Below are positions 12,619 to 61,839 of a stretch of 64,000 bases of DNA, piece by piece. Position 1 is the first letter of the stretch. Each line of letters starts with the position of its first letter. The notes beneath the pieces were generated by a model that saw nothing but the letters and a program-made list of their open reading frames with translations, was not told where the DNA came from and did not search any database. The DNA is from an uncultured Candidatus Saccharibacteria bacterium. Lineage in GTDB: Bacteria; Patescibacteriota; Dojkabacteria; GCA-002793355. Both the position numbers and the translations under genes were made by a program. The stretch spans positions 73,671 through 137,670 of the forward strand of contig CAZGEO010000001.1 of the NCBI GenBank assembly GCA_964525295.1, in the 5' to 3' direction.

Positions 12619-12777
12619 AGGAAGGTATTAAAGCATTAAAGTATTAAAGCACTAATGCGATAAGGCAAGGAAGCGTTAATGCGTTGTACTAATGCGATGA
12701 AGCATTAAAGCAGTGAAGCTCTAATACTATAAAGCACCAATGTCATAAGTGTGAGTTACATAATACGCGTCAAGTTT
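12619..12777. repeat. degenerate tandem array of 8-9 nt units (TTAAAGCAN / TAATGCGAT) between convergent genes
   Basis: The array reads gtattaaagca ttaaagta ttaaagcac taatgcgat ... ttaatgcg .. taatgcgat gaagca ttaaagcag tgaagctc. Related arrays at 35445-35535, 48110-48190 and 61085-61190. Confidence 0.55.
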
Positions 12778-20470: not shown

Positions 20471-20783
20471 TTTTCTTCTTTTAGCTTCCCATTTTCTCTA
20501 AAGCAACTCCACTCACACCAGAAACATCTTCATATTTCCGGTTATGCTCGTCCGTTTACTTTATTCTTGGTGTTGCGCACAAAAAATAAAAAGCGGGAAG
20601 TTAAAAGAAGAAGGAAATGTAATGAGGGATTCGAAACCCAAGGAGAATGTAGCAACCTACATTCGACAAAGGGCGGGGCTGCGCCTAACAACCCCTAAAA
20701 CTTATAAGTGCAATTTTAGTGATGAATCAACATAAGGAAGATGAATCCTGAAATTGGTGGGAAGCCGAATCCCGTCGTCCGCT
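20471..20783 (+). repeat. tRNA-3'-flanking element copy 3 (after tRNA-Gly)
   Basis: CGAATCCCGTCGTCCGC at 20765-20781 duplicates tRNA positions 56-72 at 20453-20469. Hairpin AATGTAG-CAAC-CTACATT at 20646-20663. Core AGGGCGGGGCTGCGCCTAACAACC at 20669-20693. Junction AAATTGGTGGGAAGCCGAATCCC. Confidence 0.7.
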
Positions 20784-20830
20784 TATGGGTTGGTGTTCAT
20801 CTGAAAAGATGGATAGCAACCCATTTTTAT
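20784..20830 (+). terminator. rho-independent terminator immediately after element copy 3
   Basis: ATGGGTTG...CAACCCAT 8-bp stem followed by TTTTATT. Confidence 0.55.
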
Positions 20831-35367: not shown

Positions 35368-35444
35368 TGGGCACGTAGCTCAGCTGGTTAGAGCATCCCG
35401 TTCACATCGGGAAGGTCACAGGTTCGAGTCCTGTCATGCCCACC
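35368..35444 (+). tRNA. tRNA-Val (CAC) with encoded CCA
   Basis: D-arm GCTC-AGCTGGTTA-GAGC, anticodon stem TCCCG/CGGGA with loop TTCACAT, T-arm ACAGG-TTCGAGT-CCTGT, acceptor with one C-A mismatch at 6-67. CCA is encoded. Confidence 0.75.
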
Positions 35445-35539
35445 AATAATAAAGCATTAGAGCTGTAAAGCAATAAAACGTCAAAATCCAAACTCTTTAT
35501 CGCTCTACTCCTTTATCGCTTTAATTCTTTACCGCAATA

Positions 35540-48061: not shown

Positions 48062-48214
48062 AATAATTACTAATTATCAATTTTCAATTATCAATGCAGA
48101 TTATTGGATAATGATGTAAAGTGGTAAAACTCTAAAGTAGTGAAGCACGAAAGCGTTAATGCTTTATGTATTGGCGTTTACTACAATACCATGAAAATGG
48201 TATAATTACCAAGT

Positions 48215-55881: not shown

Positions 55882-56179
55882 CGTTTTTACGAATCAACTT
55901 AACTTACGAGTTATGTTTCACGTGTTCGCAAAAGCGACAGGGCGTGAAACATCACCACTGTAGTGGTAAGTTGGACATGTCAGCAGCTAAGCTTTTGGGG
56001 TAGAGAACCGTCAGCTGTTTTCACTGCACCGTCATGTCACGAAAAGAAAGGGAGATTCGCAATACGCGATGTTTGTTCTACCAAAGCAAGAAAGAAATCA
56101 AACGAAGAAATTCTTCAATGCGGTCTCTTTGCTACTTTCAGGCTATATTGAAATCACTTACTTTCTTAAGCGGATTATA

Positions 56180-56477
56180 GCAGGAAAACAGGGGAGAATC
56201 AATTAATAAGGGTATCCCGTTAGCGACATAAAACAATAAAGCGCTAGATCGTCGGCACTACAAGTACTAAGGCGTTACTTCTTCGAGCCCCGCGTCGCCT
56301 GAATGAACGTCAGTACATTTTCCCTAGCACTTCAACTCCCACACTAAACTTTCTCATTTTTCTTTCTCTCATCAAATACCCTTTATTCGGCATTTTGATT
56401 TTATTGAATCTCAGTATGCGGTGAGCGTAACCGAAAGAACTCCGTCTTTCGGTAGTGAACGAACAGCATTATTAACA
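56180..56477 (-). repeat. divergent partial copy of the tRNA-flanking element, in tandem after copy 5
   Basis: The minus strand reads ...GGGAAAATGTACTGACGTTCATTCAGGCGACGCGGGGCTCGAAG..., i.e. hairpin plus GCGGGGCT core. No clear 3' junction or tRNA-end copy. Confidence 0.4.
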
Positions 56478-56784
56478 TAATGAGAGAAAGAAAAATGAAA
56501 TGCCGAAGGAGGGACTCGAACACCCAACAATTTCAGGATTCACCGCGCAATACTTGTTCATCACTGAAATTGCACTTGATACATTTATATGATTTTAGGC
56601 GCGTTCCCGCTCTCGTCAAACGTAAGGTCACTTACGTTTTCCTCAAGTTTCGAGTCACACAGCTTAACCTCTTCCTTATTTTTTCCTCACAACATTTTTT
56701 TGTGCGTAAACCAAATGAAGTAGATTACTTCATCGGTAACAAACGAAAGGTCTCGGAAAAATGGTGAGGAGAAAAATAATGAAA
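56478..56784 (-). repeat. tRNA-3'-flanking element copy 5 (after tRNA-Leu, minus strand)
   Basis: tgccgaaggagggactcgaac on the plus strand at 56501-56521 duplicates 56785-56805, the last 21 nt of tRNA-Leu, with a similar pyrimidine-rich flank. Minus-strand junction AAATTGTTGGGTGTTCGAGTCCC. Hairpin AACGTAAG-GTCA-CTTACGTT at 56618-56637. Core at 56591-56614. Confidence 0.7.
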
Positions 56785-56868
56785 TGCCGAAGGAGGGACT
56801 CGAACCCTCACACTATTGCTAGTACTAGCTCCTGAAGCTAGCGCGTCTGCCAATTCCGCCACCCCGGC
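56785..56868 (-). tRNA. tRNA-Leu (CAG), type II with long variable arm
   Basis: Reverse complement folds as: acceptor GCCGGGG/CTTCGGC with two G-U pairs, anticodon stem CTAGC/GCTAG with loop TTCAGGA, 15-nt variable arm, T-arm GAGGG-TTCGAGT-CCCTC. Confidence 0.8.
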
Positions 56869-61282: not shown

Positions 61283-61420
61283 AATTCAAATTTCCCTTAA
61301 CACATAATTCCGGTTGATTTAAACAACGGAGTATTTCGAATAACAACCGTTACAAAAAGAAAAATTTTTTTCTAGGAAATGTAACGACCTACATTCAACG
61401 GGGTGGGTGAATCCCACTAT
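61283..61420 (+). repeat. degenerate fragment of the tRNA-flanking element after tRNA-Cys
   Basis: CGAATAACAACC, hairpin AATGTA-ACGACC-TACATT, then CAACGGGGTGGGTGAATCCC. The tRNA-end copy is not preserved. Confidence 0.4.
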
Positions 61421-61839
61421 TACGCAGAATACTCATTAGAAACGAATTGAGATACTCTCTCAATGTCATCGTCAGAAATCTCTGTTGAATTGATATCTTC
61501 AATAAGCTTATTCATAATGATATTTATCTCTTTTTGGAACAATTCAATAGTTAAAACGCGATCGACATTGGTATTACTTCTATATATTTGAAACGCTTTT
61601 TGTGTTGTTGCCTTAATTCTATCAATGGCAACAAAATAATCGAGCGAATTTTTTTCTGTAGCAGAAAAAAGTGATCCAATGCTACCGTTAGGCTGAGCAA
61701 AATGCGCCAATTTATGCCTGAAATTATTTAGAAGTGACGTTGCATTACGTTTATTGTAAAGGCCATACCTCTTTAGTGTAAATTTTACTGCATCATCTTC
61801 ATAAGTTACTTTCATGAAAACTTTTTTTTTAGTTATCAC
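61420..61839 (-). CDS. hypothetical protein
   Basis: 139-aa ORF with no motif. Followed by ~260 nt without an ORF. Confidence 0.3.
   Translation of the reverse strand: MITKKKVFMKVTYEDDAVKFTLKRYGLYNKRNATSLLNNFRHKLAHFAQPNGSIGSLFSATEKNSLDYFVAIDRIKATTQKAFQIYRSNTNVDRVLTIELFQKEINIIMNKLIEDINSTEISDDDIERVSQFVSNEYSA

What the first reader, a model, noticed from the sequence alone, without database searches (positions are those of the whole stretch)
56180..56868. Tandem arrangement on the minus strand: tRNA-Leu, a full element copy, the tRNA-end duplicate, then a second divergent partial copy
Reading the minus strand:
- tRNA-Leu(CAG) at 56868-56785 is followed by element copy 5.
- The junction reads AAATTGTTGGGTGTTCGAGTCCC plus the last 21 nt of tRNA-Leu, duplicated at 56521-56501.
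- A further body then follows with hairpin AATGTAC-TGAC-GTTCATT and GCGACGCGGGGCTCGAAG. This is the family core, but it lacks a recognisable 3' junction.

Tandem accretion at a single tRNA is what repeated site-specific insertions produce. Each insertion re-creates the target.

The ~600 nt from 55882 to 56477 contain no ORF.
Basis: seen in the sequence. Interest (0 to 1): 0.7.

Follow-up and report, generated by a model that had tools for sequence, protein, structure and literature searches.

The report
Stacked noncoding inserts behind tRNA-Leu
Behind the tRNA-Leu gene of this small Patescibacteria genome lie two diverged copies of a ~300-base, protein-less, RNA-structured element that also follows most other tRNA genes here; intact copies end in a duplicate of that tRNA's tail, which points to an undescribed small tRNA-targeting insertion element whose enzyme is unknown.

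Summary
On the minus strand, tRNA-Leu(CAG) (56868-56785) is followed by a complete 283-nt element, an exact 21-nt copy of the tRNA's 3' end (56521-56501), and a second body (56500 to about 56203). A family model built without that second body still finds it (E=1e-5).

The two bodies are 67% identical and share no word longer than 8 nt, so this is not an assembly repeat artefact.

The family follows 6 of the 8 tRNAs seen in this genome and contains no ORF. Each full copy has:
- a long rod helix starting right after the tRNA;
- a 3' domain with covariation-supported helices (15 of 37 pairs show compensatory changes);
- an 'anti-T-arm' segment whose variable base tracks nucleotide 59 of the adjacent tRNA's T loop;
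- in four of the five full type-A copies, an exact distal copy of the tRNA end starting at C56.

Relatives have empty or differently occupied orthologous sites. The closest paralogs sit at different tRNAs, each with its own cognate end copy.

Best reading: serial insertion of a non-autonomous, RNA-structured, tRNA-end-duplicating element, with the older copy distal. No recombinase is in the window, and the insertion mechanism is inferred, not shown. The family matches nothing in Rfam, phage, plasmid or viral collections, or the searched literature.

The last ~290 nt of the 'ORF-free' stretch is a separate, conserved structured leader.

The parts
56785..56868 (-). tRNA-Leu(CAG). It is intact, with T arm GAGGG-TTCGAGT-CCCTC (G59) and no encoded CCA.
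   Evidence: ARAGORN; Rfam RF00005, 52.5 bits.
56665..56783 (-). Copy a, 5' domain. Rod helix P0: the U-rich strand starting right after the tRNA pairs with the purine-rich strand GUGAGGAAAAAAUAAGGAAG. The apical part carries the family motif GGUUUACGCAC.
   Evidence: Folds. All 7 copies examined have P0 with different sequences.
56641..56660 (-). Copy a, anti-T-arm ('guide') GUGUGACUCGAAACUUGAGG. It is the reverse complement of the T arm of tRNA-Leu(CAG) and forms P1/P1b with the distal T-arm mimic and end copy.
   Evidence: Sequence; alifold P1 and P1b. The pair opposite T-loop nucleotide 59 shows UA:2, GC:2, CG:1.
56619..56638 (-). Copy a, P2 hairpin AACGUAAG-UGAC-CUUACGUU.
   Evidence: Alifold: 6 of 8 pairs show compensatory change across copies.
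56591..56614 (-). Copy a, conserved mostly unpaired core GAGAGCGGGAACGCGCCUAAAAUC. The family consensus is GAGCGGGGCUGCGCCUAACAACC.
   Evidence: Alignments.
56528..56572 (-). Copy a, P3 long hairpin CAAUUUCAG...CUGAAAUUG, with an inner GAUGAAC/GUGAAUC segment containing tandem G.A.
   Evidence: Alifold: 8 of 14 pairs show compensatory change.
56501..56527 (-). Copy a, 3' junction. T-arm mimic UUGGGU followed by the exact 21-nt copy of the tRNA 3' end (56521-56501).
   Evidence: exact, 2 matches in the window, 0 expected. Also, family D7.
56203..56500 (-). Copy b, the older and divergent body. Its parts are P0 rod (56500 to about 56352), anti-T-arm GGGAGUUGAAGUGC (56340-56327), P2 hairpin (56319-56302), GCGACGCGGGGCUCGAAG (56298-56281), and a type-B tail GAAGUAACGCCUUAGUACUUGUAGUGCCGACGAU. 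No clear distal tRNA-end copy survives.
   Evidence: Leave-one-out nhmmer E=1.1e-5; P0 fold z=-6.9; type-B alignment; 67% identity to copy a.
56174..56202 (-). Promoter-like site TTGATT-17-TGcTATAAT. It marks the end of copy b and is not part of the element.
   Evidence: 10 of 12 matches, with an extended -10.
55882..56173 (-). Conserved structured leader or ncRNA upstream of the AstE/AspA-like gene. It is separate from the tRNA element.
   Evidence: 74% identity over 262 nt by blastn (E=3e-31) and 82% mean column identity by MAFFT to L021 12205-12490. Alifold gives 73 pairs, 8 compensatory. No Rfam hit.
2537..2881 (+). Family copy after tRNA-Thr(TGT). The full copy is 2537-2831 and ends in the tRNA-end copy. 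It is followed by a near-identical repeat of the first 50 nt of the element (2832-2881).
   Evidence: D5, D8: 69 nt, 88% by ungapped extension, 1 mismatch in the first 68.
4161..4462 (+). Family copy after tRNA-Thr(GGT). Its guide is GGGAGUCGAA (matching C59) and it ends in CGACTCCCGTTTCCAGC.
20471..20786 (+). Family copy after tRNA-Gly(GCC). Its guide is GGGAUUCGAA (matching A59) and its end copy is CGAATCCCGTCGTCCGCTT. A terminator-like hairpin follows. The only promoter-like site lies upstream of the tRNA.
61283..61425 (+). Short degenerate remnant after tRNA-Cys: P2-like hairpin AAATGTAACGACCTACATT, junction GGTGGGTGAATCCC, and a decayed tRNA-Cys end copy.
   Evidence: Sequence; weak nhmmer hit; alignment.

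Best explanation
The locus is a stack of two members of a lineage-specific family of ORF-less, ~170-320-nt elements. These elements occupy the space directly 3' of tRNA genes in this Patescibacteria (Dojkabacteria-related) genome.

Shown:
- Each full member starts right after the tRNA's discriminator base.
- It folds, as RNA of the tRNA-sense strand, into a rod-like 5' domain and a multi-helix 3' domain.
- A closing helix pairs an anti-T-arm segment with a T-arm mimic.
- Four of the five full type-A copies end in an exact copy of the adjacent tRNA's 3' end, from T-loop C56 (G53 at tRNA-Leu) to the discriminator. The copy after tRNA-Leu(TAA) keeps only a damaged stub of it.

Inferred:
- The elements are non-autonomous insertion elements. 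They enter at the T-loop/3'-end region of tRNA genes whose T stem is GGG/CCC.
- Each entry duplicates the tRNA end, leaving the tRNA intact and the site reusable.
- A later insertion therefore lands next to the tRNA and pushes the earlier copy outward. At tRNA-Leu(CAG), copy a (type A, intact) is the later arrival and copy b (type-B tail, decayed) the earlier one.
- The end copy is generated from the target rather than carried along, because near-identical element bodies sit at different tRNAs with different cognate end copies. That resembles a long target-site duplication more than a classical attP-carrying integrase element.
- The element is transcribed with the tRNA. At tRNA-Gly the only promoter-like site is upstream of the tRNA and a terminator-like hairpin follows the end copy.
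- The RNA fold is under selection, for the element's own propagation or to keep it harmless to tRNA maturation.
- The enzyme acts in trans and is not encoded in the window.
For: - Exact 21-nt end copy, 0 expected by chance.
- Family copies with a tRNA-end copy at four window tRNAs (families D2, D5, D7, D8). One more full copy lies after tRNA-Leu(TAA) just outside the window, and a remnant follows tRNA-Cys.
- Every nhmmer hit with E<1e-3 lies next to a tRNA.
- Copy b is recognised by a model built without it.
- Copies a and b are 67% identical and belong to different subtypes.
- Structure: 37 pairs, 91% of cells paired against 79% in shuffles and 34-46% in slid controls. 15 pairs show compensatory change, and 0 of 500 shuffles reach the observed values. 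The P0 rod is present in all 7 copies, each with a different sequence.
- The guide base opposite T-loop nucleotide 59 covaries with the tRNA. It is A/U at Gly, Thr(TGT) and L022 Cys; C/G at Thr(GGT) and both Leu(TAA) copies; G/C at Leu(CAG) copy a.
- Empty orthologous sites: tRNA-Leu(CAG) in L021, L022 and L023, and tRNA-Gly in L065.
- Stacking recurs at Leu(TAA), Thr(TGT) and L021 Cys.
- The closest paralogs sit at different tRNAs. Gly and Thr(GGT) are 84% identical over 107 nt and 76% over the whole 3' domain. Thr(TGT) and Leu(TAA) are 74% identical.
- The two window tRNAs without an element (Arg, Val) have AGG/CCU T stems.
- Promoter and terminator layout at tRNA-Gly.
Against: - No integrase, transposase, Cas1 or reverse transcriptase domain occurs in any window ORF or in about 14 kb of flanks. 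The rest of the 659-kb genome could not be read.
- No excised form, polymorphic strain or fresh (near-identical) pair of copies was seen. Window copies differ by 24-45% in the 3' domain, so any spread is old.
- Patchy presence among relatives could reflect loss rather than gain.
- Long-term retention of helices P2 and P3 in the L020 copy fits a host-useful RNA as well as a selfish one.
- The empty tRNA-Gly site of L065 did not show which end copy is the original.
- Only about 10 copies from 4 genomes were available. Pattern scans of GTDB genomes and JGI metagenomes found no further members.
Confidence: 0.55

Rival explanations
1. These are resident, host-useful tRNA-trailer RNAs rather than mobile DNA. 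Each tRNA transcript carries a 3' RNA module, for example for processing, stability or regulation of the tRNA. The stack at tRNA-Leu would arise by local duplication and divergence, and the tRNA-end copy would be a structural part of the RNA (the 3' strand of P1).
For: - Helices are covariation-supported and several unpaired motifs are conserved.
- The guide tracks the adjacent tRNA's T loop.
- The end copy is perfect in four of the five full type-A copies and decayed where the guide is also decayed.
- The layout at tRNA-Gly indicates co-transcription with the tRNA.
- P2 and P3 are retained, with compensatory changes, in the distant L020 copy.
- An RNase III gene is present, and the P0 rod looks like a substrate for it.
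Against: - Relatives with 75% identical SecA have no element at all at the same tRNAs.
- Many copies are degenerate or truncated.
- Copies a and b belong to different subtypes.
- Window paralogs resemble each other more than they resemble the L020 copy at the same tRNA.
- The end copy always equals the adjacent tRNA even between close paralogs at different tRNAs. That requires a copying event.
Confidence: 0.2
2. The elements are scars of larger integrase-bearing islands or prophages that integrated in the T loop of tRNA genes and were then almost entirely deleted. What remains would be the attL-proximal DNA and the displaced tRNA fragment.
For: The anatomy of an intact tRNA plus a displaced 3' fragment starting in the T arm, including tandem arrays, is what tyrosine-integrase islands leave behind (PMC4383910). 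The fragment boundaries seen here match that pattern.
Against: - Copies have the same size, the same two ends and the same internal architecture at six tRNAs. Random deletion would not produce that.
- There are no coding remnants.
- Related bodies carry different cognate tRNA ends.
- The element shows no similarity to phage, plasmid or IMG/VR sequences.
Confidence: 0.08
3. The locus is an assembly artefact: a mis-joined or expanded repeat at the tRNA-Leu locus.
For: Short-read contigs break inside family copies, at the Thr(TGT) 69-nt repeat and at the P2 hairpin of copy a.
Against: - Copies a and b share no exact word longer than 8 nt and are 67% identical.
- The only exact repeat is 21 nt.
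- Contig ends from two sequencing runs agree with the window.
Confidence: 0.02
4. The element is a tRNA intron: a group I or other intron in the T loop, with the distal end copy serving as the true 3' exon.
For: - Patescibacteria are rich in tRNA group I introns (PMC13011429).
- The two end copies are interchangeable in sequence in four of the five full type-A copies.
Against: - No match to Rfam group I or any ribozyme family, even at E<=10.
- The tRNA is complete without splicing.
- In degenerate copies it is the distal end copy that has decayed, while the proximal tRNA stays intact.
Confidence: 0.01

Closest known systems
Genomic islands and prophages integrated in tRNA/tmRNA genes by tyrosine integrases (T-stem/loop att sites; Islander database, PMC4383910; Williams 2002 as cited there; phage Ms6 T-loop attB, PMC1762012)
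   Same: - An intact tRNA gene plus a directly repeated 3' fragment of the same tRNA bounds the insert.
- The fragment starts in the T arm.
- Tandem arrays occur at one tRNA.
   Different: - These elements are 0.17-0.32 kb rather than kilobases.
- They have no integrase and no ORF.
- Six different tRNA species are occupied in one 0.66-Mb genome.
- Close paralogs at different tRNAs each carry the cognate end.
- The body is a covariation-supported RNA.
Non-autonomous derivatives of mobile elements (MITEs; IS200/IS605-derived PATEs; integrase-less att-flanked CIMEs, e.g. PMC5704250)
   Same: - They are short, ORF-less and multi-copy.
- They are presumably mobilised in trans.
- They decay after insertion.
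   Different: - There are no terminal inverted repeats at the element ends.
- The duplicated target is 18-21 nt or longer and always a tRNA end.
- No autonomous parent was found.
- An internal inverted repeat (anti-T-arm and T-arm mimic) matches the target rather than being element-specific.
Polar arrays built by target-duplicating integrases (CRISPR repeats with Cas1-Cas2, casposons at tRNA 3' ends, integron cassettes at attI). Recalled from general knowledge, not tested here.
   Same: - The newest unit appears to sit next to the fixed site.
- Each unit is followed by a copy of the target.
- Older units lie distally.
   Different: - No Cas1 or IntI gene is in the window.
- The units are homologous copies of one element, not unrelated spacers or cassettes.
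- No terminal inverted repeats are present.
RNA-guided mobile-element RNAs (IS110 bridge RNA; TnpB/IscB omega RNA; review PMC13565253)
   Same: - A structured non-coding RNA encoded by the element contains a segment complementary to its own target. Here that segment is the T arm.
- It also contains a target-identical segment at its 3' end.
   Different: - No effector gene is adjacent or anywhere in the window.
- The complementary segment is paired in cis with a mimic.
- There is no sequence or Rfam similarity.
Group I introns in Patescibacteria tRNA genes (PMC13011429)
   Same: Same phylum, tRNA-associated, ORF-less structured RNA of a similar size.
   Different: - Those introns interrupt the anticodon loop (position 35/36) and match group I models.
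- These elements lie after an intact tRNA and match no Rfam model.

Membership tests
tRNA-gene integrative island (tyrosine-integrase type, Islander criteria) | Intact tRNA gene plus a displaced 3' fragment of the same tRNA in direct orientation bounding the insert | tested here: met
   A 21-nt exact copy at tRNA-Leu. End copies of 17-69 nt at Thr(TGT), Thr(GGT) and Gly.
tRNA-gene integrative island (tyrosine-integrase type, Islander criteria) | Fragment begins in the T-stem/loop (or anticodon) region | tested here: met
   Identity begins at C56 (Gly, both Thr) or G53 (Leu).
tRNA-gene integrative island (tyrosine-integrase type, Islander criteria) | Integrase gene inside the element | tested here: not met
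   No ORF in the elements. No recombinase Pfam domain in any window ORF or the flanks read.
tRNA-gene integrative island (tyrosine-integrase type, Islander criteria) | The element carries the tRNA end in its attP, so one element lineage goes with one tRNA | tested here: not met
   The Gly and Thr(GGT) copies are 84% identical over 107 nt, and Thr(TGT) and Leu(TAA) are 74% identical. Each nonetheless has its own cognate end and guide base.
MITE / non-autonomous DNA transposon | Terminal inverted repeats at both ends and a short target-site duplication | tested here: not met
   The ends (TTTTTC... and ...GGTGGGnAGC) are not inverted repeats. The only inverted repeat, anti-T-arm with mimic, is internal. 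The duplication is 18-21 nt or longer.
Group I intron in a tRNA gene | Interrupts the tRNA and matches the group I core | tested here: not met
   The tRNAs are complete. No RF00028 hit at E<=10.
Any described RNA family (Rfam 15) | Covariance-model match | tested here: not met
   At gathering thresholds only tRNAs match. At E<=10 only chance-level hits appear.
Structured functional RNA (generic) | Helices kept by compensatory changes beyond shuffled and slid controls | tested here: met
   15 of 37 pairs show compensatory change, 91% of cells are paired, 0 of 500 shuffles reach the observed values, and slid controls give 34-46%. Only 6 sequences were available.
RNA-guided mobile element (bridge RNA / omega RNA type) | Guide segment complementary to the target that changes with the target | tested here: met
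   The anti-T-arm base opposite nucleotide 59 matches in 7 copies across three base types.
RNA-guided mobile element (bridge RNA / omega RNA type) | Recombinase or nuclease gene encoded with the RNA | tested here: not met
   No ORF in the elements and no such domain in the window.
Polar target-duplicating arrays (CRISPR / casposon / integron-like) | Newest unit proximal to the fixed site, each unit followed by a target copy | tested here: inconclusive
   Polarity is inferred from decay and from the guide of copy b fitting C59, the majority state in relatives. The same order is seen at Leu(TAA) and L021 Cys. The distal copy's own target copy is not recognisable.
Polar target-duplicating arrays (CRISPR / casposon / integron-like) | Cas1-family or IntI enzyme in the genome | not testable with these tools
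   Only about 78 kb of the 659-kb contig could be read.

The most novel reading that the evidence does not exclude
The element is an RNA-centred mobile unit. Its transcript would use the anti-T-arm segment to recognise tRNA genes, or tRNAs, with a GGG/CCC T stem. It would then direct its own insertion at the T-loop/3' end through an unknown trans-acting enzyme, copying the tRNA end in the process. That would make it a bacterial, tRNA-targeted, guide-carrying non-autonomous element, akin in logic to bridge or omega RNAs but without a linked protein gene. Equally unexcluded is a new class of tRNA-linked regulatory or processing RNA that pairs with the T arm.
Probability: 0.2. Interest if true: 0.85.

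Novelty: new variant of a known kind. Interest (0 to 1): 0.62.

Why it matters
tRNA genes are the classic landing sites of integrase-bearing islands. Here the same footprint, an intact tRNA plus a displaced tail with stacked copies, is left by a 0.3-kb protein-less unit that is a folded RNA carrying a segment complementary to its target.

If the element is mobile, it shows how even a 0.66-Mb episymbiont genome is colonised. It also offers a compact natural system in which target choice may be readable from an RNA sequence. If it is instead a host RNA, it would be a new tRNA-linked RNA class in a phylum whose RNA processing is poorly known.

There is also a practical point. These units break short-read assemblies at tRNA loci, and they explain long ORF-free stretches in Patescibacteria MAGs.

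Tried and rejected
Searches that found no further members:
1. Pattern scans for more copies. The GTDB genome scan with GCGGGGCTGNGCNTAACAAC gave 6 high-GC hits that showed no credible match to the family profile (best E=0.007 over about 25 nt). The JGI metagenome scan with a gapped core pattern gave 8 hits, all inside coding sequence and none near a tRNA. Three IMG/VR scans gave none or chance hits.
2. blastn of the element against phage and plasmid collections gave no match.
3. Rfam at E<=10 gave only noise, such as microRNA and snoRNA models.
4. Seven literature searches found nothing matching. The Patescibacteria tRNA group I intron paper concerns position 35/36 introns.

Motif resemblances considered and dropped:
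5. A resemblance of GGGAUUCGAAACCCAAGG, UUCGAC and GGGGCUG to the 5' part of E. coli tmRNA (recalled from memory). The motif order is reversed, neither ARAGORN nor Rfam finds a tmRNA, and the segment is explained as the T-arm complement.
6. Box C/D-like GUGAUGA...CUGA in P3. The geometry is a symmetric tandem G.A inside a continuous hairpin, not a k-turn.
7. A hammerhead-like CGAAAC. There is no CUGAUGA partner and no Rfam hit.

Analyses that were not diagnostic:
8. A duplex-energy matrix of guides against cognate and non-cognate T arms, because T arms are too alike.
9. A comparison of the empty tRNA-Gly site in L065 with the filled site, meant to decide which end copy is original. It was inconclusive: only TTTTTCT is shared.
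10. A possible loop-loop pairing between the 5'-domain motif ACGCUC and GAGCG of the 3' domain. It fits 3 of 6 copies fully, judged by eye, and I make no claim for it.
Full report
**What is at the coordinates**

Reading the minus strand, tRNA-Leu(CAG) occupies 56868-56785. ARAGORN and Rfam agree on it (52.5 bits).

A 283-nt body, copy a, follows at 56783-56501. It ends with AAATTGTTGGGT followed by GTTCGAGTCCCTCCTTCGGCA. That 21-mer is an exact copy of the last 21 nt of the tRNA. It occurs only at 56805-56785 and 56521-56501 in 64 kb, even allowing 2 mismatches, with 0 expected by chance.

A second body, copy b, follows at 56500 to about 56203.

A profile built from five other copies, without copy b, finds it at 56495-56286 with E=1.1e-5.

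Copies a and b are 67% identical over 254 aligned positions and share no exact word longer than 8 nt. Repeat collapse or expansion is therefore not a credible source of the arrangement.

Short-read Logan contigs of the same sample agree with the window. One contig was read and ends at window 56622. The other, by its length and a constant coordinate offset, should end near 56650. Both ends fall in the P2 hairpin of copy a. I could not fetch the last 1.1 kb of the second contig.

**The family**

Copies of the same element follow tRNA-Thr(TGT) at 2537-2831, tRNA-Thr(GGT) at 4161-4462 and tRNA-Gly(GCC) at 20471-20786. A full copy follows tRNA-Leu(TAA) about 200 nt beyond the window end (L007 3952-4272). 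A short degenerate remnant follows tRNA-Cys at 61283 to about 61425.

Of the 8 tRNAs seen in this genome, only Arg and Val lack an element. These two have AGG/CCU T stems, whereas all occupied tRNAs have GGG/CCC.

No family hit with E<1e-3 lies away from a tRNA. None of the copies holds an ORF.

**Anatomy**

- P0 rod. Every full copy begins at the first base after the discriminator with a pyrimidine-rich strand. This pairs 100-150 nt later with a purine-rich strand to form a 15-22-bp rod. The helix is present in all seven copies folded, each with a different sequence.
- 3' domain. RNAalifold on six copies gives P1, P1b, P2, a small GCG/CGC hairpin and a long P3 with a tandem G.A. This totals 37 pairs, 91% of cells paired, and 15 pairs with changes on both sides.
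- Controls. On the same structure, 0 of 500 column shuffles reach the observed pairing, compensatory counts or covariation score. Sliding the partners by 1-3 columns drops pairing to 34-46%.
- Strand. Eight G.U cells against four A.C cells weakly favour RNA of the tRNA-sense strand.
- Transcription. At tRNA-Gly the only promoter-like site lies upstream of the tRNA. A terminator-like hairpin follows the distal tRNA-end copy. The element is therefore most likely part of the tRNA transcript.

**The T-arm relationship**

The 5' strand of P1/P1b, GGGAnUCGAAACyCA, is the reverse complement of the whole T arm of the adjacent tRNA. The 3' strand is a T-arm mimic, UGGG-nAGC-CGAnUCCC. From C56 onward the mimic is identical to the tRNA and continues through the acceptor 3' strand.

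The guide base opposite T-loop nucleotide 59 follows the tRNA:
- U for A59 (Gly, Thr(TGT), L022 Cys);
- G for C59 (Thr(GGT), Leu(TAA) in two genomes);
- C for G59 (Leu(CAG) copy a).

Copy b has G at this position. That fits the C59 that tRNA-Leu(CAG) carries in three of four relatives, not the present G59. This is one sign that copy b is the older of the two.

**Two subtypes**

Copy b shares the 5' domain, guide, P2 and GCGGGG motif with the window's 'type A' copies. Its 3' part instead follows a 'type B' pattern, ...GGUCGAGGAAGUAAc..UAcgcGUAGcG...ACAAGGUGaCCGAnUCC.

Type B is also seen as a tail behind the type-A copy at tRNA-Leu(TAA). In relative L022 it follows tRNA-Cys and tRNA-Leu(TAA), and in L021 it forms the second body after tRNA-Cys.

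**Comparison with relatives**

The organism is a Patescibacterium. The nearest named SecA homologues are Ca. Dojkabacteria at 66% identity. The window lies on a 659-kb NCBI contig.

Syntenic loci were recovered through the SBP and SecA genes:
- tRNA-Leu(CAG) is followed directly by the next gene in L021, L022 and L023. In L020 it carries one divergent type-A copy.
- tRNA-Gly is empty in L065.
- tRNA-Cys and tRNA-Leu(TAA) are variously empty, singly occupied or doubly occupied.

**Relationships among copies**

Within the window genome, the closest pairs of 3' domains sit at different tRNAs. Gly and Thr(GGT) are 76% identical, or 84% over 107 nt. Thr(TGT) and Leu(TAA) are 74% identical. All window copies are only 50-61% identical to the L020 copy.

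Related bodies therefore carry different, always cognate, tRNA-end copies and guide bases.

**Interpretation**

The footprint matches what tRNA-targeting integrative elements leave: an intact tRNA, a displaced 3' fragment starting in the T arm, and stacked units with the more decayed one distal (Islander, PMC4383910).

Three features depart from the classical integrase picture:
- There is no integrase or any ORF, and no recombinase, transposase or RT domain in any window ORF or in about 14 kb of flanks.
- Six tRNA species are occupied in one tiny genome.
- Close paralogs at different tRNAs each carry the right tRNA end.

An attP-borne tRNA end would produce a chimeric, broken tRNA on moving to a new tRNA. 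The end copy is therefore more likely made from the target, as a long target-site duplication running from T-loop C56 to the tRNA end.

Which enzyme does this is not known and cannot be inferred from the window. Candidates include a Cas1-like, transposase-like, reverse-transcription-based or RNA-guided activity.

The conserved fold shows selection at the RNA level. Whether that serves the element or the host is open. So is the rival view that these are resident tRNA-trailer RNAs that were lost in most relatives.

**Rest of the 'ORF-free' stretch**

Copy b ends at a promoter-like site, TTGATT-17-TGcTATAAT, at 56202-56174. The ~290 nt from there to the AstE/AspA-like gene at 55881 matches the region upstream of the orthologous gene in L021. 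blastn gives 74% identity over 262 nt, and the MAFFT alignment gives 82% mean column identity. Proteins of the two genomes are only about 50% identical (SBP).

The stretch folds into a conserved structure of 73 pairs, 8 compensatory, and has no Rfam match. It is a separate conserved leader or small RNA, not part of the tRNA element.

**Novelty and limits**

Nothing comparable was found in any of the following:
- Rfam 15;
- IMG/VR;
- phage and plasmid collections;
- strict pattern scans of GTDB genomes and JGI metagenomes;
- seven full-text literature searches.

The evidence rests on about ten copies from four genomes. The pattern scans were narrow, and the rest of the genome could not be read.

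I rate this a new variant of a known kind: tRNA-end-duplicating insertions, but miniature, protein-less and RNA-structured. There is a real, unproven chance that it is something more unusual.

Noticed in passing
window 55882-56173 (minus strand), with promoter-like site 56174-56202: A ~290-nt non-coding stretch lies upstream of the AstE/AspA-like gene. It matches the region upstream of the orthologous gene in relative L021 (12205-12490): 74% identity over 262 nt by blastn, 82% mean column identity by MAFFT. SBP proteins of the two genomes are only about 50% identical. The consensus fold has 73 pairs, 8 compensatory, and there is no Rfam match. It is a candidate new structured leader, riboswitch-like element or small RNA.
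   Followed up: partly
L007 3880-4272 (minus strand), about window 64.2-64.7 kb, just beyond the window end: A further full type-A copy follows tRNA-Leu(TAA). Its guide matches C59, but its tRNA-end copy is cut to 8 nt with 2 mismatches. A type-B tail follows that is homologous to the 3' part of copy b and to the L022 copy at the same tRNA. This is a second case of a type-A copy stacked on an older type-B copy.
   Followed up: yes
window 2518-2586 and 2813-2881: A 69-nt direct repeat (the tRNA-Thr(TGT) end plus the first 50 nt of the element, 1 mismatch) flanks the Thr(TGT) copy. Two Logan short-read contigs end or start inside it (window 2547 and 2818). The number of tandem units here is therefore not resolved by short reads.
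   Followed up: partly
window 804-878 and 35369-35445, compared with the other tRNAs: The two tRNAs without an element (Arg-GCG, Val-CAC) have AGG/CCU T stems, while all six occupied tRNAs have GGG/CCC. This matches the conserved GGGA...CyC of the anti-T-arm. tRNA-Val is also the only one of the seven window tRNAs that encodes its CCA end.
   Followed up: partly
window 56838-56868; L021 11676-11707; L022 and L023 11670-11701: The 3' end of the SBP_bac_5 ORF overlaps the first ~31 nt of tRNA-Leu(CAG) on the same strand. The overlap is conserved in three relatives but absent in L020. Either the ORF really ends inside the tRNA gene, or ORF calling runs through to a stop that lies within it.
   Followed up: no
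window 12621-12746 and 48109-48165: Intergenic A/T-rich arrays with an 8-nt period (TAAAGCAT-like units) occur at two distant places. A similar motif follows tRNA-Val (about 35450-35480).
   Followed up: no
L021 6960-7415 (minus strand): In a relative, tRNA-Cys is followed by two bodies. The first is a ~110-nt mini version ending in AAATCCCGCCATTACCT, which is the tRNA-Cys end with 1 mismatch. The second is a type-B body ending in a more decayed copy, GAATCTCGTCAACCT. The proximal-intact, distal-decayed order is the same as at the window's tRNA-Leu.
   Followed up: partly
L063 8363-9130 (about 0.7-1.5 kb upstream of the window start): The genome encodes RNase III. The 15-22-bp P0 rod immediately after each tRNA would be a plausible substrate for separating the tRNA from the element RNA.
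   Followed up: no
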